From NCBI GenBank assembly GCA_028699085.1, contig JAQVVF010000005.1:79-64078 (forward strand): DNA of 64,000 bases, given 5' to 3'. This document shows positions 1-13,605 of this stretch, one piece after another. Positions within the stretch are counted from its first letter, which is position 1. Each line of letters starts with the position of its first letter. The DNA is from Patescibacteria group bacterium. Its GTDB lineage: Bacteria; Patescibacteriota; JABMPQ01; JAQVVF01. Made by a program: the position numbers and the translations under genes. The notes under the pieces are model-generated. The model had not been told where the DNA came from. It searched no databases and saw only the letters and a program-made list of their open reading frames with translations.

Positions 1-63
1 TTCCTTTTTGCCCGCCTGCTTGGGCTTCGCCCCCAAAACTTTTCGGCGGTCGGTCGGCGGGAC
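1..63. repeat. GC-rich element, partial copy truncated by the window edge. It is the reverse complement of 7846..7908, with a 49-bp perfect match.
   Basis: Bases 1-49 (ttcctttttgcccgcctgcttgggcttcgcccccaaaacttttcggcgg) are the exact reverse complement of 7857..7905. About 65% GC, against a ~30% background. Confidence 0.7.
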
Positions 64-150
64 AGAAAACAAAAGAGAAGATAAAAGAGGAATAACGCTT
101 GCCCCACCCACCCGTGCGCGCGTTATGTCGAATGAACTCCCTAATTTTGT

Positions 151-179
151 TTGACTAAATGCTAAAAATTTCATATACT
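151..179 (+). promoter_or_regulatory. Putative sigma70-like promoter of the HTH-hsdR-hsdMS-rloC operon
   Basis: TTGACT at 151-156, a 17-nt spacer, then TATACT at 174-179. Located ~60 nt upstream of the first ATG at 239. Confidence 0.45.
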
Positions 180-238
180 AACTCTTGATAAGTGATGATT
201 TTAATACTATATAACTATAATAGTAAAACTATACGAAT

Positions 239-448
239 ATGTCAAACGAAAAATCCACAATTGGGGACAACATAAGAAAATACCGAAACAAACTCGGTAT
301 TTCTCAAGATGTGCTTTCAAAGAAAGCAGATTTGGCTTTTCATACAATCGCCAAGATTGAAGCTGGCTCTACTCCAAACCCCACAATTGATACAGTCAAA
401 AAAATAGCGGACGCTCTCGGCGTTTCGCTTGATGATTTAATGAAATAA
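239..448 (+). CDS. XRE-family helix-turn-helix transcriptional regulator (R-M controller/C-protein-like)
   Basis: 69 aa. Cro/C1-type HTH (GISQDVLSKKADLAFHTIAKIE). First gene of the R-M operon, 4 nt before hsdR. Confidence 0.8.
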   Translation: MSNEKSTIGDNIRKYRNKLGISQDVLSKKADLAFHTIAKIEAGSTPNPTIDTVKKIADALGVSLDDLMK

Positions 449-452
449 AATT

Positions 453-2966
453 ATGACAAATTCTAAAGAAGCAAAAGCACGAATAAAAATAAACAAATTG
501 CTTGAACAAGCGGGCTGGAGATTTTTTGATAATGAAAAAGGACAAGCAAACATTTCACTTGAACCAAATGTAAAACTTACCCAAAAGGACATTGACGCTT
601 TTGGTGAAGATTTTGAATCTACAAAAAACGGCTTTATTGATTTTTTATTGCTTGATGAAAAAGGTTTCCCACTTGTTATTTTGGAAGCCAAAAAAGAAGA
701 TAAAAATCCACTAGACGGAAAAGAACAAGCGAGAAAATATGCTCATACTGAAAATGCTCGTTTTGTAATTCTTTCAAACGGCAATCTTCATTATTTTTGG
801 GACTTGGAACGAGGCGATCCTGAAATTATCACGGAATTTCCAACGCAAGAATCTTTGAAGCACAGGCAAGATTTCAAACCCGACAATCAGCGTTTAGCAG
901 ACGAAGAAGTCAAAGAGGATTATATTGCGTTTACTCAAAATCCAAATTTCAAAGATGATCCTCGCTATCTCAACAAAGAAACACGAGAACAATATCTTTG
1001 GGACGAAAACTTGCGAATTTTACGCCCATATCAGCTCAAAGCGGTTCACGCTTTGCAAAAATCCGCCGAAGCTGGAAATGATCGTTTTCTTTTTGAAATG
1101 GCAACGGGAACAGGAAAAACGCTTATTTCCGCCGCCATTATTAAACTTTTTTTAAGAACAGGAAACGCAAAAAGAATTTTGTTTTTGGTTGACCGTTTGG
1201 AATTGGAAGATCAAGCACATAAAAACTTTGTCCGCTATTTGAGCAACGATTTTTCCTCTGTTATTTATAAGCAAAATCGTGATGACTGGAAAAAGGCGGA
1301 AGTGGTTATCACAACCGTTCAAAGTCTTTCATCGCAAGACAAATACAAAAAACTATTTTCACCAACTGATTTTGATTTAGTTATTGCTGATGAATCACAC
1401 CGAGCAATCGGCGGAAATTCGCGCGCAGTTTTTGAATACTTTATCGGCTACAAATTGGGCTTAACCGCAACACCGAAAGACTATTTGAAAAATGTTGATC
1501 CACAAAAGTTATCGCAAAAAGACCCGCGAGCTTGGGAAAGACGGCAATTGCTTGATACTTACACGACTTTTGGTTGCAAAAACGGCGAGCCGACTTTCCG
1601 CTTTAGTTTGCTTGACGGCGTGCGAGAAGGATTTTTGATCAATCCTATTGTTTCGGACGCTCGGACAGACATCACAACTGAATTGCTTTCAGAAAAAGGC
1701 TATGCGGTCATGATTGAAGATGAAGAAGGTGGCGAAAGCGAAGAAACATTTTTTCAAAAGGATTTTGAAAAGAAATTCTTTTCCGAAAAGACAAATCGTG
1801 TCTTTTGCCAAACATTTATCGAAAATTCTCTCAAAGACCCGATAAGCGGTGAAATCGGCAAAAGTATTATATTTTGTGTAAGCCAAAAACATGCTTCAAA
1901 AATTACCCAAACACTCAACCAAATGGCGAGCCAGCTTTGGCCCGACAAATACAATTCTGATTTTGCCGTGCAAATAACCTCAAACATTGCCGATAGCCAA
2001 CAATTCCCGATCAATTTTGCCAATAACAATTTAAGCGGGCATACAAAATTTTTAGAAAACTACAAATCAAGCAAAACCAGAATTTGTGTAACTGTCGGAA
2101 TGATGACGACTGGCTATGATTGCCAAGATATTTTGAATCTTGCGCTTATGCGTCCCGTCTTTTCGCCGACTGATTTTATCCAGATCAAAGGACGAGGAAC
2201 AAGAAAATTTACTTTTGAATATACCGACGAATACGGCGAAAAGCACAAAGCAATAAAAGATCATTTCAAATTTTTTGATTTTTTCGCTAACTGCGAATAC
2301 TTTGAAGAAAAATTTGATTATGACGAGGTTTTGCTGTTGCCTATCAAACAAAAAGGAACTGGTGGAGAAGGACCTGTCGGCGTTGATATTGATGAAATAG
2401 AAATTTTCAATCCCGACAAGGTAAAATCCCTCACCGAAATACCCGTTGGAATTGAGGGAATGAAAGTTGATCGAAAACTTTTTGAGAAAGCCCGCGAGGA
2501 ATTACAAAACGATCCCGAAGTAAAAACTGCCGTTGAAAGCGAGCAATGGGAAAAGGCGGTGCAGATAATGCGGAACAAATACGAAGACAAACCGCAATTA
2601 TTCCTAAATCTTGAAAAAATCCGCAAGAGTGAAAATCTTGATCGCCGTATTTCTTGGCGTGAATTTTTAGAGCGAGCTTTCGGCTTGATTGATGTTTTCA
2701 AATCCAAAGACGAGAAATTGGAAGAAGAATGCGAAAAATTTATTTCAATCTACAAACCCGAAAGCAAATATGTTCCACATATCAAAAATTATCTGAAGGC
2801 GTATGTTACGGATTCAGAAATTCGCGACATTATAGATTCCAAAGAATATGGGCGTTTTGCAACCAATCCAAAAGTTACGATGAAAGATTTTCGAGATCTG
2901 AATGGATATCGTGAAGTCGTCCCTGAATATGTAAAGGATTATGTAGCTATTAACGCTTTCATGTAA
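453..2966 (+). CDS. hsdR: Type I restriction enzyme R subunit (HsdR-like endonuclease/helicase)
   Basis: N-terminal HsdR_N/Mrr-like PD-(D/E)xK region (DFLLLDEKG...ILEAKK). SF2 helicase motifs: I ATGTGKT, II DESH, III LTATP. 837 aa. Operon with a methylase. Confidence 0.85.
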   Translation: MTNSKEAKARIKINKLLEQAGWRFFDNEKGQANISLEPNVKLTQKDIDAFGEDFESTKNGFIDFLLLDEKGFPLVILEAKKEDKNPLDGKEQARKYAHTENARFVILSNGNLHYFWDLERGDPEIITEFPTQESLKHRQDFKPDNQRLADEEVKEDYIAFTQNPNFKDDPRYLNKETREQYLWDENLRILRPYQLKAVHALQKSAEAGNDRFLFEMATGTGKTLISAAIIKLFLRTGNAKRILFLVDRLELEDQAHKNFVRYLSNDFSSVIYKQNRDDWKKAEVVITTVQSLSSQDKYKKLFSPTDFDLVIADESHRAIGGNSRAVFEYFIGYKLGLTATPKDYLKNVDPQKLSQKDPRAWERRQLLDTYTTFGCKNGEPTFRFSLLDGVREGFLINPIVSDARTDITTELLSEKGYAVMIEDEEGGESEETFFQKDFEKKFFSEKTNRVFCQTFIENSLKDPISGEIGKSIIFCVSQKHASKITQTLNQMASQLWPDKYNSDFAVQITSNIADSQQFPINFANNNLSGHTKFLENYKSSKTRICVTVGMMTTGYDCQDILNLALMRPVFSPTDFIQIKGRGTRKFTFEYTDEYGEKHKAIKDHFKFFDFFANCEYFEEKFDYDEVLLLPIKQKGTGGEGPVGVDIDEIEIFNPDKVKSLTEIPVGIEGMKVDRKLFEKAREELQNDPEVKTAVESEQWEKAVQIMRNKYEDKPQLFLNLEKIRKSENLDRRISWREFLERAFGLIDVFKSKDEKLEEECEKFISIYKPESKYVPHIKNYLKAYVTDSEIRDIIDSKEYGRFATNPKVTMKDFRDLNGYREVVPEYVKDYVAINAFM

Positions 2967-2971
2967 AAATT

Positions 2972-5428
2972 ATGCTTAATCAAGATACAAAACGAAAAAT
3001 TGACTCTGCCCGTAATATCCTTGTCGGCAAAGTTCCTGATCCAAAAGCACAGGTTGAGCAAATCACGACTGCTCTCATCTATAAATTTATGGATGATATG
3101 GACAAGGAAGCTCAAGAGCTTGGCGGTAAGGCAAGGTATTTTACAAATGGCTACGAAAAATATTCGTGGACAAAATTGATGGATGTAAAACTTGGTGGGC
3201 ATGAACGCTTGAACCTGTATTTTGAAGCAGTGAGCAGTCTTGGTCGCAATCAGCACATGCCACAAATTTTTAGAGATATTTTCGGCGATAAATCATTGCC
3301 ACCCTATCGTGATCCGCAAACCCTCACTCTTTTTTTGAAAGAGATAAATGGCTTTAATTTTGATCACAGCGAAGATTTGGGTGACGCTTATGAATACCTG
3401 CTTAATGTTATTGGCACATCTGGCGAAGCGGGACAATTTCGCACGCCTCGCCAAATTATTGATTTTATAGCAACAGCGGTTGATCCAAAAAAAGGTGATA
3501 CAGTTTGCGATCCTGCCTGCGGAACGGCTGGCTTCTTGATTTCTGCCTACAAACATATTTTAAAACAGCATGACGGTTTAGATGATCCCGAAAAAACAGA
3601 AAAACCGCTTACTCCAGACGAAAAGAAAAATTTGATGAATCATTTTGTCGGCTACGATATTGATCCAGGAATGGTGCGGATTGCTACGGTAAATATGTAT
3701 TTGCACAATTTTCCTGAACCGAAAATTTTTGAATACGACACGCTCACTTATGAGGACAGGTGGGACGAAACTTTTGATGTGATTCTCGCCAATCCGCCAT
3801 TTATGACACCAAAGGGCGGAATTCGTCCGCACAAGCGTTTTAGTATTCAAGCGAACCGATCGGAAGTCCTTTTTGTTGATTATATTGCCGACCATTTGAA
3901 TCTAAACGGCAAGGCGGGCGTGATTGTTCCCGAAGGGATTATTTTCAATAATCAAGTTGCATACAAGAATTTGCGAAAAAAATTAGTGGAAAGTTGTTTG
4001 ATTGCCGTCGTGAGTTTGCCTCAAGGTATTTTTATCAAGCCGGGCGGAAAAGGAAATGTCAAAACTGGTGTTTTGATTTTTGACAAAGAACTGGTCAAAA
4101 AAACCAAAGATGTTTTATTTGTGAAAATCAGCAATGACGGTTTTGATCTTGGCGCGCAAAGACGAGTAATTGATAAAAATGATTTGCCCTTGGCTTTGGG
4201 AATTATCAAAAGATATAAATCTGCGTTGAAAAACGGCAAGGATTTTGAATTAGACGAAGAAGAAAACAAAATTGCGCATATTGTTGCCAAAGAAAAAATT
4301 GCTGAAACTGGCGACTATAATTTAACAAATGAACGATATAAAGAAACGGCTGAGCGAATAAATCAAAAATATCCAATGGTTGAATTGGGCGAGGTTTGTG
4401 AGATGTATCAACCAAAAACAATCACCTCAAAAGAAATAAAATCAGAAGGAAAATATAAGGTTTTTGGGGCAAATGGAGTTATTGGATATTACGACAAGTA
4501 TAATCACGAAGATAGCGAGGTTCTTATCACTTGTCGTGGGGCAACTTGTGGGACACTTAATTTATCTGAGCCAAATTCTTGGATTACTGGAAATGCAATG
4601 GTAATAAAGCCAAAGGATGATCGACTTAGCAAGCAGTTTCTTTTTTACATTCTGAAACAATCAAACTTTAAATCGGTAATTTCTGGATCAGCTCAACCTC
4701 AAATAACAAGGACATCATTATCACCTTTAGAAATACCACTTCCGCCGATTGAAATTCAAAAAGAAATCGTTGAGCAGATTGAGGTCAAGCAAAATGCCAT
4801 AGATCACGCCAAGGCGATTATCCAAAATCTAGAGAGAGAGAGACGCTATTTTGGTCAATCACTTAGAAAATTAGAAGGCGTTGAATGGGTGGAATTGGGT
4901 GAAATTTTTGAAAAAGTGAGTGATCAAATCAATCCACAAAATAATTCTGGTTCAGTCGTCTATATTGGACTAGAAAACATTGAATCAAATTCAGGAAATA
5001 TAGTTGGGGAAATAAATACCGAAATGAAATCAATTAGAAGCATTAAAAATGTATTTAAAGAATCAGATATTCTGTATGGAAAACTAAGACCGAATTTAAA
5101 CAAGGTATGGTTATCAGATCGAAAAGGCATTTGCTCTACTGATATTCTGGTTTTAAGGAAAAAGAAAGAAGAAATGAATCCGTGGCTTTACACAATTATT
5201 TTAAGAAGTGAGGAATTTAACACTGAGGTTTTGAAAGGGCTAAAAGGTGCGCAATTGCCAAGAGTGAGTTTTGAGTACTTATCTAAAATCAAAATCCCAT
5301 ACTTGGTAGAAGAATTACAAGAAAGATATTTGAGCGATTTAAAAAATGAGGAAGAAGCAATAAATGCAAACAAAAAAATGATTGAAATTTACGAACAAAA
5401 AATTTCTGATGTGTTAAGCGAAATATAA
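2972..5428 (+). CDS. Type I R-M methyltransferase fused to specificity subunit (HsdM-HsdS fusion)
   Basis: N-terminal HsdM_N region. AdoMet motif DPACGTAGFL. N6-adenine MTase motif NPPF. The C-terminal ~350 aa contain two HsdS-like target-recognition domains (LITCRGATCG...; YGKLRPNLNKVW...) separated by a conserved EIQKEIVEQIE spacer. Confidence 0.8.
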   Translation: MLNQDTKRKIDSARNILVGKVPDPKAQVEQITTALIYKFMDDMDKEAQELGGKARYFTNGYEKYSWTKLMDVKLGGHERLNLYFEAVSSLGRNQHMPQIFRDIFGDKSLPPYRDPQTLTLFLKEINGFNFDHSEDLGDAYEYLLNVIGTSGEAGQFRTPRQIIDFIATAVDPKKGDTVCDPACGTAGFLISAYKHILKQHDGLDDPEKTEKPLTPDEKKNLMNHFVGYDIDPGMVRIATVNMYLHNFPEPKIFEYDTLTYEDRWDETFDVILANPPFMTPKGGIRPHKRFSIQANRSEVLFVDYIADHLNLNGKAGVIVPEGIIFNNQVAYKNLRKKLVESCLIAVVSLPQGIFIKPGGKGNVKTGVLIFDKELVKKTKDVLFVKISNDGFDLGAQRRVIDKNDLPLALGIIKRYKSALKNGKDFELDEEENKIAHIVAKEKIAETGDYNLTNERYKETAERINQKYPMVELGEVCEMYQPKTITSKEIKSEGKYKVFGANGVIGYYDKYNHEDSEVLITCRGATCGTLNLSEPNSWITGNAMVIKPKDDRLSKQFLFYILKQSNFKSVISGSAQPQITRTSLSPLEIPLPPIEIQKEIVEQIEVKQNAIDHAKAIIQNLERERRYFGQSLRKLEGVEWVELGEIFEKVSDQINPQNNSGSVVYIGLENIESNSGNIVGEINTEMKSIRSIKNVFKESDILYGKLRPNLNKVWLSDRKGICSTDILVLRKKKEEMNPWLYTIILRSEEFNTEVLKGLKGAQLPRVSFEYLSKIKIPYLVEELQERYLSDLKNEEEAINANKKMIEIYEQKISDVLSEI

Positions 5429-5430
5429 CT

Positions 5431-7845
5431 ATGATTAGCAAAATCTCAAAACTCGATAAAGTTGCTAAATTTTCTTCCATTACACAAGAGAAGGTTTTTC
5501 AATATGGTGGGAAAGGACAAAACTGCAATATCGTCTTTGGATTTAATGGATCTGGGAAAACCACTCTATCAAATGCAATTTCATTTTTCGCCGACAACTC
5601 CTTTATTAGTGAGGACGAAAAGAAAGAAATATATGATGATATAAAAAATGGTGATGATTCTATCGTTGAATTAAGCACACAAGGAAATTCAACAATAAAA
5701 TACCCTGCCAACAGCGCACATAGTAAAAATATTTATATTTTCAATTCCAACTTTGTCGCTACTCATGTTTTTAACGGCACGAAAGGAAAATTGAAAAAAT
5801 TTTCGAATATAGGCGGTGAAATTAAAAACAAGGAAATTGATAATATCAATCAGCAAATTGAAGTGCTTGACGAGGAGAAGAAAAAGCTAGAAAACGAAAA
5901 TACAAAATTAGGCGAAAAGCACGAGGAAATTACAAAAACCAGAAGCAAAAGTTTTGGTAAAACTTTGACCGATAAAAACAAAAGACTTTTAACTCAAGAT
6001 TTAACTAATGTTCAATTACCCACAGAAACTATTGAAAATCTTGAAGTAAAACTCGCTACATTTTCTGCCGATTATGAATTGAGCAAAAAACAGACTGAGT
6101 TAAACGCCGACCTTGAAGAATTACGACAACTAAATTTTAGCTCATTGGATTTTGATTTTCCAAAATTAGACGAGCTACTGGCAAAAAATATTCAACAACT
6201 GTCAAAAGAAGTTTTGGAAAAAAAGATAAAGGAAGTGCAAAATCTTTTTTCGGATGACCAACATAAACAAAGTGTTGAGAAATGGTTTAGATTTGGAAAG
6301 GATGTTTTAGAGAACACAAACGGGAATGACAAAAAACACTGCCCGATTTGTAATACAGATATATCAGAGCGAATGAGTTTAATTTTGAAGGATTATCAAG
6401 GATATTTTGATGAAAGTTATGAAAATTTTATTAACGATTTAAAGCTAAAAAGTGATGATATTTCAACGAATACCGTCACTTTAGAACAACACGAGCTAAA
6501 TGCTAGTAAATTAGAAAAACTGCAAATCAAGTATGCAAAACTGCTAGGCGAGCTTTCTTTTGAAAAATTTGATTTTAAAGATATTAAAGCTGACCTTGTT
6601 GAGTTAAAAGAAAGTTTTGTTTCAAAAAATGGGAATGTTCAAGACAATTTTTCAAAACCAAAGAATATAGAAAATAATATTACTGCCCTCAATCTTGCCT
6701 TGACAGCGTTTCAAGAACTCAGGAACAATGTTTTGAAACTTTTAGAATCAAAGAAATTAAACACGCACACTATTGAGGGACAAATCAGACAAACCTATAA
6801 CGAAATTATCCTACTAGAATTTAATCAAACTGATAAACTTGGGGCAATAAAGAAGTACAAAGTCAATAAAAATAGAATTGAGGCTATCATAGACAGCAAA
6901 GAGGCAGGTCTTCCTTTTTGGAAAAACAAATTGCTAGAAGAATTAAGGAAGCTCAAAGCTGAATCAAAGAGTATTTCCAGATATTTAAACAAAATGGGGA
7001 TAGATCATTTTGATATTGATATTAACGAAGAAAAACAAGACGAAAATATTATAATCAAATACAAAAATTCGACAAATGAGAAAAATAAGCTCAAAAATTG
7101 TTTGAGCGACGGCGAAAAAACAGCGTTAGCTTTCGCGTATTTTTTAAGTAAATTTGAAAATGAAATAAACACACCAGAAAAAGTGAAAGATTCTGTTGTG
7201 GTTATAGATGATCCGATTTCTAGCTTGGACGATAACAGACTTTACAGCACCGCTCATTTAATTTGGCGCAACTTTGAGGAAGCAAAGCAACTCATCGTAT
7301 TGAGTCATAACTTTCTTTTCTTGAAGTTTTTCAATTCTTTTTATTGTGGAAAAGCAAACTGTTTATTCTTGGATAGTGAAAAGATTACTGATTTGCCAGA
7401 TGAATTAAAAAACTTTGAAACGCCTTATTTTTATATGCTTAAGACAATCATTGATTTCTTGGATCAGAATAATCAAAATGTAAATTACAATGAAGCGAAA
7501 CGATACTTACCGAATTTCATTAGACGAGTTTTGGAAACATTTCTATCATTTAAGTTTTCAAGAACAGTCAACAAATCTGGCGGACATAGAAGTCCTGGAT
7601 TAAACGAATTTGATGAAAATATTGATAATACTGATATGGATGATAAAATAAAGAAAGAGTTGAAAGATAAAATAGCAGAAATAAACAGAATTGCAGATGC
7701 ACATTCTCACGGAAACGCTCATCACACGCAAGAAAATTTTTATATTTCCGAAACCGATCTCAAAACATTATCCCAAAGTGCAATCTCTGTTATTGAAACA
7801 ATGGATAATTTGCACAAGACTTGTTTTGTTAAAATTGAAAATTAG
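5431..7845 (+). CDS. RloC/PrrC-like ABC-type ATPase with a coiled-coil zinc hook and a putative C-terminal anticodon-nuclease domain
   Basis: 804 aa. Walker A GFNGSGKTT. Long K/E-rich coiled coil with a central CPICNTD (CxxC hook). ABC signature LSDGEK. Walker B/D-loop VVVIDDPISSLD. C-terminal region with R/H-rich motifs (NFIRRVLETF; AHSHGNAHH). Located immediately after hsd genes (restriction-linked ORF). Confidence 0.7.
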   Translation: MISKISKLDKVAKFSSITQEKVFQYGGKGQNCNIVFGFNGSGKTTLSNAISFFADNSFISEDEKKEIYDDIKNGDDSIVELSTQGNSTIKYPANSAHSKNIYIFNSNFVATHVFNGTKGKLKKFSNIGGEIKNKEIDNINQQIEVLDEEKKKLENENTKLGEKHEEITKTRSKSFGKTLTDKNKRLLTQDLTNVQLPTETIENLEVKLATFSADYELSKKQTELNADLEELRQLNFSSLDFDFPKLDELLAKNIQQLSKEVLEKKIKEVQNLFSDDQHKQSVEKWFRFGKDVLENTNGNDKKHCPICNTDISERMSLILKDYQGYFDESYENFINDLKLKSDDISTNTVTLEQHELNASKLEKLQIKYAKLLGELSFEKFDFKDIKADLVELKESFVSKNGNVQDNFSKPKNIENNITALNLALTAFQELRNNVLKLLESKKLNTHTIEGQIRQTYNEIILLEFNQTDKLGAIKKYKVNKNRIEAIIDSKEAGLPFWKNKLLEELRKLKAESKSISRYLNKMGIDHFDIDINEEKQDENIIIKYKNSTNEKNKLKNCLSDGEKTALAFAYFLSKFENEINTPEKVKDSVVVIDDPISSLDDNRLYSTAHLIWRNFEEAKQLIVLSHNFLFLKFFNSFYCGKANCLFLDSEKITDLPDELKNFETPYFYMLKTIIDFLDQNNQNVNYNEAKRYLPNFIRRVLETFLSFKFSRTVNKSGGHRSPGLNEFDENIDNTDMDDKIKKELKDKIAEINRIADAHSHGNAHHTQENFYISETDLKTLSQSAISVIETMDNLHKTCFVKIEN

Positions 7846-8215
7846 TCCCGCCGTCCCGCCGAAAAGTTTTGGGGGCGAAGCCCAAGCAGGCGGGCAAAAA
7901 GGAAGGGGGTTGGGGGGAAGGAATTTTTGCCCGCCTGCTTCCGTTCCCGTTCCGTTTGAGCAAAGGAAAAGCGGAAGGGGGGTTTGGGGGGAATTCCGCC
8001 ACGCCCGAGCGAAATCAAATTGTGGACAGCCCCGCCGTCCTGCTCGTTAAGAGCAGAACCCCGCACAAAAGTTTTCTTTTCCTTTTAGAAGAAAAAAATC
8101 GGCGCGCGCAAATCAAAAATTGTGAAGAAAACTTTTTTGCGGGGTGGCGAGGTTTCCGAGCGACGGCGGGGCTGGCTTCCTTATTGGGGGTTTTGCTCAA
8201 AAAAAGTTCGAACAT
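7846..8215. repeat. GC-rich (~60% GC) hairpin-dense element. Possible MITE/att-like element or structured RNA.
   Basis: Perfect 15-bp stem at 7886..7938 (gcaggcgggcaaaaa/tttttgcccgcctgc). Long imperfect hairpin 8025..8067 pairing with 8130..8176. 7857..7905 is the reverse complement of 1..49. No plausible ORF. Confidence 0.6.
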
Positions 8216-8255
8216 CAATCAAAAAACACCGTTTTTTATAAAAAAATATTTTTAT

Positions 8256-8738
8256 ATGGAAAATAACAAACAATCTACACAATGTTGTCCAAAATTTAAT
8301 CCAGAACTTTGGGATAATAAAATTATTACTTGGAATAACAAAAAATTTATCAAAGATAAAGTTTTCACCTTGTTCCACATGCCAATTAATTTTGGTTCAG
8401 TTATGAAAAGAATAACTGAAAAGGTAGAAAAAAATAAAGTTAATATTCCTGGTTATCTTTGCCTATCAGATCATACTTCAAAATGGAATATGGATGTTTA
8501 TTTAGCAGTTGATAAAGAAGTACCTGATGCTGAAAATATTACTTTAAATGGAAAATACTTAAGTAAAGTTTATGAAGGAAATTTTAAAGATACAGGCAAA
8601 TGGAGTGAAGATTTTAAAAATTTTGCTAAAGAAAAAGGTTTTAATATCAAAAAATGGTATATGTGGTATACGACTTGTCCAAAATGCGCCAAAAAATATG
8701 GCAAGAATTATGTAGCAATAATTGCCCAAATTGGCTAA
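8256..8738 (+). CDS. Hypothetical Cys-containing protein (CCPKF..., CPKCAKKYG zinc-ribbon-like end)
   Basis: 160-aa ORF starting at the ATG at 8256. The longer 7869 start lies in a non-coding GC-rich repeat. No recognised family. Confidence 0.45.
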   Translation: MENNKQSTQCCPKFNPELWDNKIITWNNKKFIKDKVFTLFHMPINFGSVMKRITEKVEKNKVNIPGYLCLSDHTSKWNMDVYLAVDKEVPDAENITLNGKYLSKVYEGNFKDTGKWSEDFKNFAKEKGFNIKKWYMWYTTCPKCAKKYGKNYVAIIAQIG

Positions 8739-9535: not shown

Positions 9536-10276
9536 ATGCTTAGTGCATTACTACTTACAACAATATCTGGACTGTCAACAGTTATTGGTGGCTTGGCAAT
9601 TTATATTATCAAGAATAAAAACAAATATTATAGTTTAGGAATGGGTTTTGCTGCTGGAGTAATGATTTATATCTCTTTTGTCGAATTACTTGGTAAGAGT
9701 ATAATAAAAATTGGATATGGAAAATCAATACTGTCATTTTTTATTGGGATTATTATAATTTTTCTTATTGATATTTTGATACCTCATCTCTATCAGGAAG
9801 AAAAAAAGATTATAACTAAACAAGGTAAGACTTTTACAAAAAGTGCGATTCTAATAACAATTGGTATCGCAATCCATAACTTTCCAGAAGGCATAGCAGT
9901 ATTCTATTCTTCTCTTGCTGGTTTAAGTTTTGGATTATTTATTACATTAGCAATAATATTGCATAATATTCCCGAAGGTTTTTCAATTGCAATGGCTGTC
10001 AATAAAGCCACAAATAACAGAAGAAGAGCAATCTGGTTTTGCTTTATTTCTGGTATTGCTGAACCAATCGGTGCCTTATTATCCATTATCTTTTTGTATC
10101 GTTTCATTGATCAAAATTTATTAAACATTATTTTAGCTGGAGTCGCTGGAGTTATGATTTTTATTAGTTTTGATGAATTATTGCCTCAAGCTTATACGCA
10201 AAAAAGTGCCCATCTAACAATTGGCGGCATAATAAGCGGTATGGCAATAATGTCAATCAGCTTATATTTCCTTTAA
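9536..10276 (+). CDS. zupT: ZIP-family zinc transporter (ZupT-like)
   Basis: Multi-TM protein with HNFPEG and HNIPEG signature motifs. Confidence 0.8.
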   Translation: MLSALLLTTISGLSTVIGGLAIYIIKNKNKYYSLGMGFAAGVMIYISFVELLGKSIIKIGYGKSILSFFIGIIIIFLIDILIPHLYQEEKKIITKQGKTFTKSAILITIGIAIHNFPEGIAVFYSSLAGLSFGLFITLAIILHNIPEGFSIAMAVNKATNNRRRAIWFCFISGIAEPIGALLSIIFLYRFIDQNLLNIILAGVAGVMIFISFDELLPQAYTQKSAHLTIGGIISGMAIMSISLYFL

Positions 10277-10278
10277 TT

Positions 10279-11595
10279 ATGTCTCACAAAGAAAAAATTT
10301 TAGATATTATAAAACAATTAAAAAATTTAAAATCAAAGAATCAACCTGTTTCTTTTTCCAAAAAAACAGTTTCTCATTTTGTTCCATCAGCACACACATC
10401 AAGAGAAAAACTGCCCAAATTAGATTTAAAGTCTTTAGATTCTTTACTTAATATTGATCCAAAAAAAAATATTGGTATTGCTGAACCTGGTCTTACTTTC
10501 TCGGAATTATTAATAGAATCATTGAAATATAATTTAATTCCAGCTGTTGTCCCAGAATTAAAGACCATTACTTTAGGAGGTGCAATTTCCGGATGTTCAA
10601 TAGAATCAATGTCCTACAAGTATGGAGGATTCCATGATAGTTGTTTAGAATATGAAATAATCACTAGCAATGGAGAAATCATTATCTGCTCAAAAGATAA
10701 TAACCAAGATATTTTTGATATGATTCATGGTTCATATGGAACATTAGGAATAATTTCCAAAATAAAATTTAAATTATTGCCTGCCAAACCATATGTTCAT
10801 TTACTTTACAAAAAATATAATAATTTTGAGCAGTATTGGAATGATTTGCAAAAATACTGCCAGGAAAAACAATTTGATTTTATTGATGGAATAATTTATA
10901 ACACAAATTTATTTATTCTTTGTTTAGGCAATATGGAAGATTCTGCTCCTTTTACATCGAAATATGATTGGCTAAAAGTCTTTTATAAAGCTACTGCCAA
11001 GAAAGAAGAAGATTATTTTAAAATTTACGATTATTTTTATCGTTATGATGCTGATTGCCATTGGCTATCAAAAAAAATTCCGTTAATGGAAACATTTTTT
11101 GGCAGATTATTTTTTGGAAAGTTTGTTTTAGGATCAAGCAACTTAATAAAACTCTCCAAAAAGTTTGGGCCAAAAATTAATAAAGGCAAGAAACCAGATG
11201 TTGTTGTTGATGTTTTTATTCCTAACAATAATTTTCCACAATTTTATAATTGGTATAAAAAAGATTTTAATTTTTTTCCACTATGGATTGTGCCATACAG
11301 AGCTCCAAAAATCTACCCTTGGGTTTCTAACAGTTTAGCTAGCAAAATTGAAGATGCTTTTTTCATTGATGCTGCAATCTATGGTAAAGAAAACAATGAA
11401 AAAAATATTGATTATGCTAAAATGCTTGAAGATAAAGTTTTTGAACTTAATGGCATTAAGACTCTAATTTCACAAAACCATTATTCTAGAACAAGATTCT
11501 GGGAAATTTATAATTTTGAAAATTTTAAAAAAGTTAAACAAAAAACAGATCCAAATAATTTGTTTAATGATTTATATAAAAAAATGGTTAGATAG
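10279..11595 (+). CDS. FAD-binding oxidoreductase (FAD_binding_4 / ALO- or DprE1-like)
   Basis: PCMH-type FAD-binding domain (LGGAISGCS...GSYGTLGII). The C-terminal ...DPNNLFN end is typical of FAD-linked oxidases. Confidence 0.7.
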   Translation: MSHKEKILDIIKQLKNLKSKNQPVSFSKKTVSHFVPSAHTSREKLPKLDLKSLDSLLNIDPKKNIGIAEPGLTFSELLIESLKYNLIPAVVPELKTITLGGAISGCSIESMSYKYGGFHDSCLEYEIITSNGEIIICSKDNNQDIFDMIHGSYGTLGIISKIKFKLLPAKPYVHLLYKKYNNFEQYWNDLQKYCQEKQFDFIDGIIYNTNLFILCLGNMEDSAPFTSKYDWLKVFYKATAKKEEDYFKIYDYFYRYDADCHWLSKKIPLMETFFGRLFFGKFVLGSSNLIKLSKKFGPKINKGKKPDVVVDVFIPNNNFPQFYNWYKKDFNFFPLWIVPYRAPKIYPWVSNSLASKIEDAFFIDAAIYGKENNEKNIDYAKMLEDKVFELNGIKTLISQNHYSRTRFWEIYNFENFKKVKQKTDPNNLFNDLYKKMVR

Positions 11596-12786: not shown

Positions 12787-12814
12787 GTTTTTTATTAAAA
12801 TAATTTTATTTAAA

Positions 12815-12887
12815 CGGGCCGGACGGGACTTGAACCCGCGACCTTCTCCGTGACAGGGAGACGTGAACTCCGCTTCACTACCGGCCC
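12815..12887 (-). tRNA. tRNA-Asp (GTC)
   Basis: Cloverleaf with anticodon loop CTGTCAC, GGTTCAAGTCC T-arm and 7-bp acceptor stem GGGCCGG/CCGGCCC. No encoded CCA. Confidence 0.85.
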
Positions 12888-12927
12888 AAATTTATTTCTC
12901 AATGGTTTGCATCACAGATTATATCAA

Positions 12928-13001
12928 TAGCAGGGGACGGATTCGAACCGTCGACCGCCACTTTATGAGTGTGGTGCTCTAACCAACTGAGCTACCCTGC
13001 C
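12928..13001 (-). tRNA. tRNA-Met (CAT), elongator type. Could alternatively be tRNA-Ile2 (lysidine).
   Basis: Anticodon loop CTCATAA, D-arm GTAGCTCAGTTGGTTAGAGC and T-arm GGTTCGAATCC. The anticodon stem lacks the three G-C pairs of an initiator. Confidence 0.75.
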
Positions 13002-13090
13002 TCAAAACAAATAACTAAATTATAAATTAAAAATGACAAAATTTAGAATCGTAAATTTTTCATTTATAATTTAGTTATTTTTAATTCAAA

Positions 13091-13164
13091 ATTGCGGGGG
13101 GCGGATTTGAACCGCCGACCTTCAGGTTATGAGCCTGACGAGCTTCCAAGCTGCTCTACCCCGC
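13091..13164 (-). tRNA. Initiator tRNA-fMet (CAT)
   Basis: The sequence CGCGGGGTAGAGCAGC...GGCTCATAACC...GGTTCAAATCCGCCCCCCGCAA closely resembles bacterial tRNAfMet, including a C1:A72 mismatch. Confidence 0.85.
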
Positions 13165-13605
13165 GATAATACGTATATTATATATTAAACAATAAAAAAA
13201 GCAAGTTCACTTGCTCCTATCGATTATTGATGCAATATAAAATTATTTAGGTCCGAAAAAATATTTTAATAACGGCAAAATAGCATAAAAAATAAATGCC
13301 AGAATTGCCACTAAAATAAGATAAACTCTCAAAATTTTTGCTTCTTCTAACATTTGATCCAAAGTCTAATTACATAAATCAAAGTAAACAACAAAACAAT
13401 TGTCGTGCATGCAAAAAATAATAGTAGTTTTTCTGTTAATTCCATGACTTTAGTGATTAGTAAATAAGTAATTAGTAAGTAGTAAGTCATCTATATTATA
13501 AATAATATTTAAAAAGATGGCAACCTTTTAATTAATGATAATTCTTGTTAAACTGATAGAGAGCGATAACTAGTTACTAGTCACTTATTTACTAATTACA
13601 AAAAT

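What the first reader, a model, noticed from the sequence alone, without database searches (positions are those of the whole stretch)
2972..5428. HsdM and a complete two-TRD HsdS encoded as a single 818-aa polypeptide
Canonical type I systems encode M and S separately. Here the N6-adenine methyltransferase (DPACGTAGFL, NPPF) continues in frame into two HsdS-like target-recognition domains with the conserved central spacer. No separate hsdS is present. A fusion would fix M:S stoichiometry, which fits genome streamlining. It could alternatively indicate a Type IIG/ISP-like variant working with a stand-alone R helicase.
Basis: seen in the sequence. Interest (0 to 1): 0.55.

Follow-up and report, generated by a model that had tools for sequence, protein, structure and literature searches.

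The report
Fused, probably switchable type I methylase-specificity gene
The 818-residue protein is a genuine natural fusion of the methylase and DNA-recognition subunits of a type I restriction system, it belongs to a large family found across many phyla, and a short AG repeat inside the gene probably lets cells switch between a two-domain and a one-domain form with different DNA targets.

Summary
Window 2972..5428 (+) is one 818-aa ORF: a full HsdM (aa 1-456), a 12-residue linker, then a complete HsdS (TRD1, CR1, TRD2, CR2).

It is not an assembly artefact. More than 90 full-length homologues from independent assemblies keep the same uninterrupted junction. An orthologous HsdR lies directly upstream in nearly every locus. 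No second hsdM or hsdS lies nearby.

The family spans many bacterial phyla, including large genomes, and some archaea. So it is not a genome-streamlining trait, and it is not Type IIG or ISP.

It is the natural counterpart of the engineered "Type IMS" EcoKI fusion. Its one-TRD relatives include the solved V. vulnificus M1S1/2 enzyme (7EEW) and an E. coli IncF plasmid system.

- Homologues carry (AG)4, 5, 6 or 7, always differing by whole units.
- About a quarter are out of frame. These stop 15-19 codons later, giving an ~630-aa M~S1/2, and almost all keep an intact TRD2-CR2 frame downstream.
- This is the signature of slipped-strand phase variation, but it is inferred, not shown.

The 1 M : 2 TRD stoichiometry of the full-length form is unresolved. 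The operon is C-hsdR-hsdMS-AAA_13, flanked by long inverted repeats.

The parts
239..448 (+). 69-aa helix-turn-helix protein, likely controller (C) protein of the operon
   Evidence: Pfam HTH_3, E 1.1e-15. PADLOC 'Control_protein', E 7.4e-12. 91-94% identical copies lie upstream of hsdR in L005-7, L014 and L015. Only 4 nt separate it from hsdR.
453..2966 (+). hsdR: 837-aa restriction subunit (PD-(D/E)xK-type HSDR_N nuclease plus SF2 motor)
   Evidence: Pfam ResIII 1.6e-39, HSDR_N, HSDR_N_2, Helicase_C. PADLOC REase_I 4.8e-56. NCBIfam EcoAI/FtnUII R scores 243.7 bits, below the 550 cut-off. Best PDB match is 3h1t, V. vulnificus HsdR. Orthologues of 47-98% identity sit directly upstream of the MS gene in nearly all related loci. 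It is 59% identical over its full length to the E. coli IncF plasmid R.
2972..5428 (+). hsdMS: 818-aa single-chain HsdM~HsdS (the finding)
2972..4339 (+). HsdM part (aa 1-456), gamma-class N6-adenine methyltransferase. Motif I DPACGTAGFL at nt 3509-3538, motif IV NPPF at nt 3791-3802.
   Evidence: N6_Mtase 8.6e-55. MTase_I profile aligned end to end. PDB HsdM chains 5ybb_A, 2okc_A, 2y7c_B. This part is highly conserved in the alignments.
4340..4375 (+). M-S junction/linker (aa 457-468)
   Evidence: pLDDT below 50 at aa 458-464. The junction is continuous and in frame in all aligned homologues. Met469 is not conserved, so there is no conserved internal start for a separate S protein.
4376..4738 (+). 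TRD1 (aa 469-589)
   Evidence: Methylase_S, best stretch aa 467-622 (TRD1 through CR1). Aligns to the TRD of 7eew_A, query aa 468-620 to chain residues 466-615. It is variable and shuffled among homologues.
4739..4873 (+). Central conserved region CR1 (aa 590-634), long helix
   Evidence: Helices 593-625 and 627-633 in the model. Strongly conserved as 'IPLPPIEVQKEIVEQIEVKQNAIDHAKAIIQNLERERRYFGQ'.
4831..4843 (+). (AG)6A dinucleotide tract, covering the last base of L620, all of E621-R624 (GAG AGA GAG AGA); R625 (CGC) follows it. Candidate slipped-strand switch.
   Evidence: It is the only dinucleotide repeat of 5 or more units in the 64-kb window. The tract is pure in 15 of the 17 subfamily-A loci listed and interrupted by one substitution in two (L014, L020), while flanking synonymous sites vary. 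Homologues carry 9-, 11-, 13- or 15-nt tracts, and the frame changes exactly here.
4874..5302 (+). TRD2 (aa 635-777)
   Evidence: Matches S subunits 3okg_A, 5ybb_D and 7vru_C from their N-termini. It is variable and shuffled among homologues. Only 22% identical to TRD1.
5303..5428 (+). Distal conserved region CR2 (aa 778-818) plus stop codon
   Evidence: Helix 780-817. Conserved C-terminus '...LIEIxEQKISDVLSEI'.
5431..7845 (+). 804-aa AAA_13 ATPase with a CxxC motif (HCPICN) in the long insertion separating its N- and C-terminal ATPase motifs. PrrC/RloC-like candidate defence partner.
   Evidence: Pfam AAA_13 1e-59. PADLOC PDC-S06 1.3e-47 and PrrC 3.9e-17, the latter over the ATPase part only. 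It starts 2 nt after the hsdMS stop. AAA_13 genes of ~25% identity follow hsdMS in L002, L014, L017 and L024 as well.
1..63 (.). Inner end of the left long inverted repeat, cut off by the window start
   Evidence: 49 nt are 100% complementary to 7856-7904. The match extends to 63 nt at 94%. It is homologous to the 334-396-nt repeats of L055 and L103.
7845..8200 (.). Right long inverted repeat, a G+C-rich region with nested hairpins
   Evidence: It is 85% identical over 366 nt to the L103 arms and 97% over 117 nt to the L113 contig end. No Rfam family matches, only chance hairpin hits.

Best explanation
The gene encodes a genuine single-chain HsdM~HsdS subunit. It is the natural equivalent of the engineered 'Type IMS' enzyme, in a tightly packed operon C-protein / hsdR / hsdMS / AAA_13 ATPase.

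How it most likely works:
- TRD1 and TRD2, held apart by the CR1/CR2 helices, read an asymmetric bipartite target.
- The fused gamma-class methyltransferase makes N6-methyladenine.
- The separately encoded HsdR (nuclease plus SF2 motor) docks on this core and cuts unmethylated DNA after ATP-driven translocation, as in type I systems. All three of these steps are inferred from homology.
- One chain carries one M domain but two TRDs, and both strands must be marked. The active core therefore most likely recruits a second M domain from a second M~S chain, either intact with an idle S part or clipped at the flexible linker. This is inferred from the behaviour of the two engineered fusions.

An (AG)6 tract at the end of CR1 most likely makes the gene a contingency locus. 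Gain or loss of an AG unit would truncate the protein to about 630-634 aa, giving M~TRD1~CR. That is the M1S1/2 architecture, which homodimerises into a stoichiometrically complete (M1S1/2)2 enzyme with a palindromic target built from the TRD1 half-site. One gene would then alternate between two specificities.

What is shown here: the fusion, the family, the conserved R partner, the tract polymorphism and its frame consequences. What is inferred: enzymatic activities, assembly and actual switching.
For: Fusion is real and conserved:
- 100% identical protein in NCBI from a 70-kb Patescibacteria contig, and 94 of the top 120 homologue clusters are full length with the same Pfam architecture.
- The junction is continuous in 92 aligned sequences.
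- About 65 of 80 GTDB loci have an uninterrupted ORF of 780 aa or more.

Type I character:
- The M part is highly conserved, the TRDs are variable and combinatorially shuffled, and CR1 and CR2 are conserved.
- An HsdR orthologue lies directly upstream in nearly all loci, with no extra hsdM or hsdS within about 6 kb or in the 64-kb window.
- Structure.

Precedents:
- The EcoKI MS fusion is active in vivo with HsdR alone but needs added HsdM in vitro (PMC3510504).
- The CC398-1 MSfus is active with a co-purifying M-containing proteolytic fragment, and M1/2Sfus dimerises and methylates a palindrome (PMC6158711).
- The V. vulnificus M1S1/2 fusion dimer is solved as 7EEW (PMC12429846 citing Seo 2022).

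Switch:
- Tract lengths among 62 locus records are 13 nt (46, in frame), 15 nt (7), 11 nt (2) and 9 nt (7). All differ by whole AG units.
- Out-of-frame alleles stop after 15-19 codons.
- In 15 of 16 of them the TRD2-CR2 frame is still open for 176-203 codons and ends with the conserved CR2 terminus.
- The seven (AG)7 alleles carry different TRD2/CR2 sequences, so they arose independently.
- 23 of the top 120 protein clusters end at the tract with the predicted tails ...LERERDAILVNHLEN...LERDDILVKHLEN or ...LERETIFWSST.
- Codons 621-624 are GAG-AGA-GAG-AGA in 39-42 of 42 distinct sequences, although this gene uses GAA 53: GAG 17 and AGA for 11 of 34 Arg codons. Neighbouring Glu codons vary.
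- The tract meets the published criterion for phase-variable hsdS genes: 5 or more dinucleotide units, located between the TRDs (PMC7383803).
Against: - There is no expression, methylome or biochemical data for this or any two-TRD member.
- No pair of near-identical sequences differing only in tract length was found. The best pair is 92-93% identical. Switching within a strain is therefore not shown, and the (AG)4 allele looks fixed in one SR1 lineage whose hsdR has also lost its motor.
- Six units is a short tract, so the switching rate may be low.
- Some flanking codons are as invariant as the tract codons. Part of the metagenome sample was selected using fixed flanks.
- A larger subfamily with a different CR1 ('GYQKIIDGAKQVVENYKP') has the fusion but no tract, so the switch is not a general property of the fusion.
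- The inter-domain geometry of the model is uncertain (pTM 0.52), and the source of the second M domain is unknown.
Confidence: 0.75

Rival explanations
1. The fusion is spurious. An assembly or sequencing error removed the stop or frameshift between separate hsdM and hsdS genes.
For: Canonical systems have overlapping or adjacent hsdM and hsdS genes. The source is a metagenome-assembled genome.
Against: The same continuous junction appears in 92 aligned full-length homologues down to 55% identity, from NCBI, JGI, ENA and Logan assemblies. It also appears in about 65 of 80 GTDB species genomes. One-TRD fusions exist in cultured E. coli plasmids and in a crystal structure.
Confidence: 0.02
2. 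It is a Type IIG, IIB or ISP-like enzyme that merely cooperates with a stand-alone helicase. It would cut near or at a fixed distance from its site, or act as a 'half type I' enzyme.
For: A PADLOC Type IIG profile matches aa 458-815. The 1 M: 2 TRD ratio is the same as in AloI and CjeI (PMC3874165).
Against: The IIG match covers only the S-like C-terminus of that profile (positions 880-1265 of 1271). There is no nuclease domain in the MS protein, and aa 1-130 is the HsdM N-domain. The neighbouring protein is a complete HsdR with HSDR_N nuclease and motor, orthologous across the family.
Confidence: 0.03
3. The AG tract is not a functional switch. GAG-AGA-GAG-AGA simply encodes a conserved ERER motif, and the truncated alleles are assembly errors or decaying pseudogenes.
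For: The ERER residues are conserved at the protein level. No same-strain length variants were found. One out-of-frame locus (L132) has lost the downstream frame. The SR1 (AG)4 lineage also has a damaged hsdR. The tract has only six units.
Against: All length differences are whole AG units (9, 11, 13, 15 nt), not the single-base indels expected of errors. There are at least 10 independent out-of-frame lineages. 15 of 16 keep an open TRD2-CR2 frame of ~190 codons, which is very unlikely by chance in A+T-rich DNA (my estimate, not computed). Synonymous alternatives GAA and CGN are almost never used in the tract, although they dominate elsewhere in the gene. The truncated product equals a known active architecture (7EEW; M1/2Sfus in PMC6158711).
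Confidence: 0.27
4. The full-length one-M/two-TRD protein acts alone. It would methylate only the TRD1-side adenine and use TRD2 only for extra specificity.
For: There is one catalytic domain per chain and no second hsdM nearby. Single-strand marking works for Type III, ISP and MmeI-like enzymes (established knowledge).
Against: A type I R2-core complex can cut from a single unmodified site. One daughter duplex would be unprotected after replication (inference from established type I biology). Both engineered MS fusions methylated both strands and needed, or carried, a second M (PMC3510504, PMC6158711).
Confidence: 0.12

Closest known systems
Engineered EcoKI MSFusion ('Type IMS', Roberts et al. 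2012, PMC3510504) and CC398-1 MSfus (Bower et al. 2018, PMC6158711)
   Same: HsdM joined in frame to a complete two-TRD HsdS, with a separate HsdR. The authors defined the name Type IMS for exactly this architecture, with one or two TRDs.
   Different: Those are laboratory constructs from type IA and staphylococcal systems. This is a natural, ancient, widely distributed family with an EcoAI-like R, an R-before-MS gene order, a C protein and, in one subfamily, an internal AG repeat.
Vibrio vulnificus YJ016 intact MTase M1S1/2 (PDB 7EEW; Seo et al. 2022, as cited in PMC12429846)
   Same: A natural HsdM fused to a TRD plus CR helix. It is the best sequence and fold match in the PDB, covering both the M part and TRD1-CR1. 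The best PDB match of the window's HsdR is also a V. vulnificus YJ016 HsdR (3h1t); whether it belongs to the same operon as 7EEW was not checked. It has the same architecture as the predicted truncated state here.
   Different: It has one TRD only (638 aa) and works as a symmetric dimer. Sequence identity is only about 20%. No repeat-driven alternation with a two-TRD form has been described for it.
Phase-variable hsdS genes: NgoAV poly-G, AG[n] hsdS of Mycoplasmataceae (Atack et al. 2020, PMC7383803)
   Same: A simple-sequence repeat lies between the two TRDs. Out-of-frame lengths give a one-TRD product that dimerises and changes specificity. The tract here meets their criterion of 5 or more dinucleotide units.
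   Different: There S is a separate subunit and M is unaffected. Here the repeat sits inside a fused M~S gene, so the switch would also change the M:TRD ratio from 1:2 to 1:1. The hosts are uncultured environmental bacteria, and switching has not been demonstrated.
Single-chain Type IIB/IIG enzymes AloI, CjeI, TstI (R~M~S; PMC3874165)
   Same: One methyltransferase domain is followed by two TRDs in one chain, giving the same unexplained 1:2 ratio.
   Different: Those carry an N-terminal nuclease, lack a motor subunit and cut at fixed distances. Here the nuclease and motor are in a separate HsdR.
E. coli IncF plasmid module: RHH regulator / 849-aa R / 677-aa 'N-6 DNA methylase' / TrlF-family ATPase (for example NZ_CP116482.1)
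   Same: The R is 59% identical over its full length and the M part is 52% identical. The four-gene layout is the same: small regulator, R, M fused to an S domain, large ATPase.
   Different: It has one Methylase_S domain only, no AG tract was examined, and its ATPase belongs to a different family (TrlF/Ppl-like versus AAA_13).

Membership tests
Type I restriction-modification system (canonical) | HsdR with a PD-(D/E)xK nuclease and an SF2 translocase | tested here: met
   HSDR_N and HSDR_N_2, ResIII, DEAD, Helicase_C. PADLOC REase_I 4.8e-56. Walker A 'ATGTGKT', 'DESH' and 'D...EAK' are visible in the translation.
Type I restriction-modification system (canonical) | Gamma-class N6-adenine methyltransferase of the HsdM type | tested here: met
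   N6_Mtase 8.6e-55. MTase_I profile aligned end to end. Motifs DPACGTAGFL and NPPF are present.
Type I restriction-modification system (canonical) | Specificity module with two TRDs separated by conserved helical regions | tested here: met
   Two Methylase_S stretches. Full-length S profile match. Model shows TRD1/CR1/TRD2/CR2. Fold matches to whole S subunits.
Type I restriction-modification system (canonical) | M and S as separate subunits assembling as M2S1 | tested here: not met
   One ORF and no second hsdM or hsdS. The fusion gives 1 M: 2 TRD per chain.
Type I restriction-modification system (canonical) | ATP-dependent translocation and cleavage far from a bipartite site; m6A on both strands | not testable with these tools
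   This needs biochemistry or a methylome.
'Type IMS' (definition of Roberts et al. 2012, PMC3510504) | HsdM fused to HsdS (one or two TRDs) with a separate HsdR subunit | tested here: met
   Definition read.
Type IIG / IIB single-chain R~M~S (AloI-like) | Nuclease domain fused N-terminal to the methyltransferase; no motor subunit | tested here: not met
   There is no nuclease domain in the MS protein. The IIG profile matches only the S region. A separate motor-nuclease HsdR is present.
Type ISP (LlaGI-like) | Nuclease, motor, methyltransferase and a single TRD in one polypeptide | tested here: not met
   R is a separate 837-aa protein, and the MS protein has two TRDs.
Phase-variable hsdS (criteria of Atack et al. 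2020, PMC7383803) | Repeat of 5 or more dinucleotide units, not a multiple of 3, inside the ORF between the TRDs | tested here: met
   (AG)6 at 4831-4842 within CR1.
Phase-variable hsdS (criteria of Atack et al. 2020, PMC7383803) | Tract length varies among otherwise homologous genes, giving full-length or truncated products | tested here: met
   (AG)4, 5, 6 and 7 alleles with the predicted frame consequences.
Phase-variable hsdS (criteria of Atack et al. 2020, PMC7383803) | Switching within a clonal population, with a change of methylation motif | not testable with these tools
   No reads or methylomes are available. The closest pair with different tract lengths is only 92-93% identical.

The most novel reading that the evidence does not exclude
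A single fused gene acts as a two-state specificity switch. AG-unit slippage would toggle the enzyme between a two-TRD chain with an asymmetric target and non-canonical 1 M : 2 TRD stoichiometry, and a one-TRD chain that self-assembles into a canonical-ratio (M1S1/2)2 dimer with a palindromic target. In the full-length state the complex would assemble in a way not yet described for type I enzymes, for example (M~S)2 with one idle S module. If so, this would be a natural, widespread model for the unsolved 1:2 stoichiometry of AloI/CjeI-type enzymes.
Probability: 0.35. Interest if true: 0.7.

Novelty: new variant of a known kind. Interest (0 to 1): 0.5.

Why it matters
Fusion of M to a complete S was thought of mainly as a laboratory construct and as a hypothetical evolutionary intermediate between type I families and type IIG enzymes. 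Here it is a large natural family with a conserved R partner, spread across bacterial phyla and some archaea, and currently annotated only as 'N-6 DNA methylase'.

It gives a natural system in which to ask how an enzyme with one methyltransferase domain per two recognition domains marks both strands. That is the same open question as for AloI and CjeI.

If the AG tract is a real switch, uncultured Patescibacteria would have repeat-driven epigenetic and restriction heterogeneity of the kind known mostly from host-adapted pathogens.

In practice, genome annotation and defence-system finders that require a separate hsdS will miss or mislabel these systems. The ~630-aa 'variants' in databases should be read as the out-of-frame state of the same gene. 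An E. coli plasmid relative offers a tractable model.

Tried and rejected
- Second hsdM or hsdS elsewhere: none in the 64-kb window or within about 6 kb in 87 loci.
- Internal start for a separate S protein: Met469 is not conserved.
- SR1 alternative genetic code as the cause of the 630-aa forms: rejected. TRD2 is in another frame, and the stop is TAA.
- Near-identical pairs differing only in tract length: none found, best 92-93% identity.
- Look-up of the window protein's own contig: not on record.
- Evidence for inversion of the repeat-flanked cassette: the L055 left flank matched the L103 right flank. I first read this as an inversion, but L103 is stored in the opposite orientation, so both loci have the same layout and no inversion is shown.
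- Rfam on the G+C-rich repeat arm: only chance hairpin hits.
- Full two-TRD fusions on plasmids: the full-length query reported 3 plasmid records with at least 80% coverage, which were not listed and not retrieved. A second query with the C-terminal 518 aa found none.
- Literature: no paper describing natural two-TRD M~S fusions was found in four searches. REBASE could not be consulted.
- PDB sequence search for the AAA_13 protein: no match.
- 'TrlF' literature search: no relevant paper.
Full report
**1. Observation**

Window 2972..5428 (+) is a single ATG-initiated ORF of 818 aa.

- Pfam finds N6_Mtase at aa 134-461 (E 8.6e-55) and two Methylase_S stretches (E 2.9e-32).
- In PADLOC a full-length HsdM profile aligns end to end (aa 1-478 to positions 2-474 of 491). 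A full-length S profile aligns to aa 470-812.
- An AlphaFold2 model built on 92 homologues (mean pLDDT 81.5, pTM 0.52) sets the borders: M 1-456, low-confidence linker 458-464, TRD1 469-589, CR1 helix 593-633, TRD2 638-777, CR2 helix 780-817.
- Foldseek returns 7EEW first, then HsdM chains, then whole S subunits.
- TRD1 and TRD2 are 22% identical, so the predicted target is asymmetric and bipartite.
- No other hsdM or hsdS exists in the 64-kb window.

**2. Not an artefact**

- The identical protein is in NCBI as 'N-6 DNA methylase [Patescibacteria group bacterium]', from a 70-kb contig.
- Of the best 120 homologue clusters, 94 are full length (about 790-890 aa) with the same domain content. 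They come from independent NCBI, JGI, ENA and Logan assemblies.
- The M-S junction (GDYNLTxERY...NQKWPxVELGE) is continuous in all of them.
The best 80 are almost all full-length matches, and about 65 have an uninterrupted ORF of 780 aa or more.

**3. A family with type I behaviour**

The alignment shows the classic type I pattern. The M part is strongly conserved. TRD1 and TRD2 are hypervariable and recombined in different combinations between members. CR1 and CR2 are conserved.

An orthologue of the window's HsdR (47-98% identity, full length) lies directly upstream of the MS gene in nearly every locus with enough flank. Sometimes one inserted gene (Fic, RhuM, a trypsin-like protein, T5orf172) sits between or beside them. 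No second hsdM or hsdS lies within about 6 kb.

Hosts include Patescibacteria, Bacteroidota, Chloroflexota, Planctomycetota, Thermodesulfobacteriota, Spirochaetota, Cyanobacteria, Acidobacteriota, Nitrospirota, Binatia and Methanoperedens. The fusion is therefore not a streamlining feature of small genomes.

The HsdR here has HSDR_N nuclease, ResIII/DEAD and Helicase_C domains. It resembles the EcoAI family without reaching the equivalog cut-off. The Type IIG and ISP readings fail: the MS protein has no nuclease, and R is a separate, complete protein.

**4. What is known**

- Roberts et al. fused EcoKI hsdM and hsdS. They obtained a working system and named the architecture 'Type IMS', with one or two TRDs and a separate R. 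In vitro the fusion needed added free HsdM (PMC3510504).
- Bower et al. made MSfus and M1/2Sfus from a staphylococcal system. MSfus was active while carrying a co-purifying proteolytic fragment that contained M. M1/2Sfus dimerised and methylated a palindrome (PMC6158711).
- A natural one-TRD fusion from V. vulnificus YJ016 has been crystallised as 7EEW. It forms (M1S1/2)2 (PMC12429846).
- Loenen et al. call the 1 RM: 2 TRD ratio of AloI and CjeI 'a mystery' (PMC3874165).
- I found no paper describing natural two-TRD M~S fusions. REBASE could not be consulted.

**5. Stoichiometry**

One chain carries one M and two TRDs, whereas the canonical core is M2S1.

Marking only one strand would leave one daughter duplex open to a type I nuclease. 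I therefore infer that a second M domain is recruited from a second chain, either intact or clipped at the flexible linker, as in the engineered fusions. This step is inference. The model's domain arrangement is too uncertain to test it (pTM 0.52).

**6. The AG tract**

Several '630-aa variants' in the homologue list prompted a look at their loci. In L005-7, L017 and L024 the reading frame changes exactly in CR1, at a run of AG dinucleotides.

In the window the run is (AG)6A at 4831-4843, within the codons for L620-E-R-E-R-R625. It is the only dinucleotide repeat of 5 or more units in the 64 kb.

There are two CR1 subfamilies. One ('...NLERERRYFGQ...') always carries the tract. The other, larger and more distant ('...GYQKIIDGAKQVVENYKP...'), has none.

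I ran a pattern scan of JGI metagenomes with fixed flanks and a free middle, and combined it with the GTDB loci. This gave the following tract lengths:

| Tract length | Repeat | Records | Frame |
|---|---|---|---|
| 13 nt | (AG)6 | 46 | in frame |
| 15 nt | (AG)7 | 7 | out of frame |
| 11 nt | (AG)5 | 2 | out of frame |
| 9 nt | (AG)4 | 7 | out of frame |

- There are 62 records in total. Two pairs are the same contig fetched twice, so the 16 out-of-frame records represent 14 contigs.
- All lengths differ by whole AG units.
- Out-of-frame alleles terminate 15-19 codons later.
- In 15 of the 16 records the TRD2-CR2 frame is still open for 176-203 codons and ends in the conserved '...KISDVLSEI'.
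- The seven (AG)7 alleles have different TRD2/CR2 sequences, so they are independent events.

At the protein level, 23 of the top 120 clusters end at the tract with the predicted tails.

Codons 621-624 are GAG-AGA-GAG-AGA in 39-42 of 42 distinct in-frame sequences. The gene otherwise prefers GAA (53 to 17) and uses AGA for only 11 of 34 Arg codons, and neighbouring Glu codons vary freely.

For the window gene, one extra unit would give a 634-aa product ending ...LERERDAILVNHLEN. One unit fewer would give a 630-aa product ending ...LERETLFWSIT. Both retain M, TRD1 and a CR helix of nearly normal length, which is the 7EEW / M1/2Sfus architecture.

This matches the published pattern for phase-variable hsdS genes (NgoAV; AG[n] in Mycoplasmataceae; repeats always between the TRDs; threshold of 5 or more dinucleotide units; PMC7383803). 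Here, however, it lies inside a fused M~S gene.

Caveats:
- No same-strain length variants were found.
- The tract is short.
- Some flanking codons are equally invariant.
- Part of the sample was selected using fixed flanks.
- The (AG)4 allele seems fixed in an SR1 lineage whose hsdR has lost its motor.

I rate actual switching at about 0.6-0.7.

**7. Operon and surroundings**

The four genes are separated by 4, 5 and 2 nt:
- a 69-aa HTH protein matching RM controller proteins;
- hsdR;
- hsdMS;
- an 804-aa AAA_13 ATPase. It matches PADLOC candidate system PDC-S06 and, over its ATPase part, PrrC. It has a CxxC motif in the long insertion separating its N- and C-terminal ATPase motifs.

The slot after hsdMS varies between loci:
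- AAA_13 in L002, L014, L017 and L024, at about 25% identity;
- a UvrD-like helicase in L103;
- an HTH-SocA/Panacea protein in L055;
- unknown proteins in L001 and L015;
- a TrlF/Ppl-like ATPase in the E. coli plasmid relative.

A sigma-70-like promoter (TTGACT, 17 nt, TATACT) lies at 151-179. Such matches are not above chance in this region.

The cassette has 38-39% G+C in its first 4 kb (the rest is about 33%), against about 30-32% for the rest of the window. The C protein and R are 91-94% identical in MAGs assigned to other phyla. Both point to horizontal transfer.

**8. Inverted repeats**

The cassette is bracketed by inverted repeats. Positions 1-49 are perfectly complementary to 7856-7904, and the left arm is cut off by the window start.

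Homologous repeats of 334 nt (99% complementary, L055) and 396 nt (97%, L103) bracket the same cassette elsewhere. Three metagenome contigs end in them (L110, L113, L127). L015 has a non-homologous 323-nt pair.

In L055 and L103 a large serine recombinase gene lies just outside the R-proximal arm. In L001 a tyrosine recombinase occupies that place. I found no evidence that the cassette actually inverts. An apparent case was an orientation artefact of how L103 is stored.

**9. Verdict**

The fusion is real and is best filed as a natural Type IMS system, a new variant of a known kind. The more interesting feature is the AG tract, which probably alternates the gene between M~S and M~S1/2 forms. 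The assembly of the full-length form remains an open and now testable question.

Noticed in passing
window 1-63 and 7845-8200; L055 1369-1702 / 10175-10508; L103 173-568 / 7884-8278; L015 210-531 / 7247-7569: The whole C-R-MS-X cassette (6.7-8.5 kb) is bracketed by long, near-perfect inverted repeats of 320-400 nt. The repeats are homologous between the window, L055, L103, L110, L113 and L127, but different in L015. The window's left arm is cut off by the window start. No Rfam match.
   Followed up: partly
L055 about 2-1123 (-); L103 right flank; L001 3875-4738 (-): A large serine recombinase gene (Resolvase + Recombinase + Zn_ribbon_recom) lies just outside the R-proximal inverted repeat in L055 and L103. 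A tyrosine recombinase is in the same place in L001. This suggests a recombinase-mobilised or invertible cassette. No inversion was demonstrated. In the window this side lies beyond position 1.
   Followed up: partly
window 5431-7845 (+): An 804-aa AAA_13 ATPase matching PADLOC candidate system PDC-S06 and, over its ATPase part, PrrC. It has a CxxC motif (HCPICN) in the long insertion separating its N- and C-terminal ATPase motifs and an R-x3-E motif near the C-terminus, reminiscent of RloC/PrrC anticodon nucleases embedded in type I loci. A nuclease domain was not established.
   Followed up: partly
L141 (E. coli plasmid NZ_CP116482.1) 2215-9954: Conjugative IncF plasmids of E. coli carry a homologous four-gene module: RHH regulator, R (59% identical to the window's), a 677-aa M fused to one Methylase_S domain, and a TrlF/Ppl-like ATPase. 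This is a cultured, tractable relative, annotated only as 'DEAD/DEAH box helicase' and 'N-6 DNA methylase'.
   Followed up: partly
L078 5953-10539: In an Owenweeksia MAG the M~S reading frame continues without a stop into an FRG domain and a long TPR array, for 1529 codons in all. This may be a further fusion or a read-through. It was not examined.
   Followed up: no
L005-L007 (SR1 / Absconditabacteria contigs): This lineage has the (AG)4 out-of-frame allele in many samples (35 contigs for P0081). Its hsdR lacks residues ~226-560, the motor core. A RhuM gene lies between R and MS. It looks like a system that has become a methylase only.
   Followed up: partly
window 239-2966 versus L014 and L015: The C protein (91-94%) and HsdR (91-92%) are much more similar to those of a Thermodesulfobacteriota MAG chromosome (L014) and a Paceibacteria MAG (L015) than the M part is (64-67%). 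This indicates mosaic exchange of the MS module and recent transfer across phyla, or mis-binning.
   Followed up: no
L031, L040, L073, L086: Some family members without any AG tract are stable one-TRD fusions of 636-655 aa that end right after a CR helix. Both architectures therefore exist as fixed forms.
   Followed up: no
L025 about 1960-2060: A tandem duplication of about 50 nt ('ACCGATTGATAATAGAATAAATAAGAGATTTCTATTCCATTTATT') interrupts TRD1 of the MS gene in a Bacteroidetes MAG.
   Followed up: no
window 12814-13166 (-): A cluster of three tRNA genes (Asp-GTC and two Met-CAT) lies about 5 kb downstream of the cassette.
   Followed up: no
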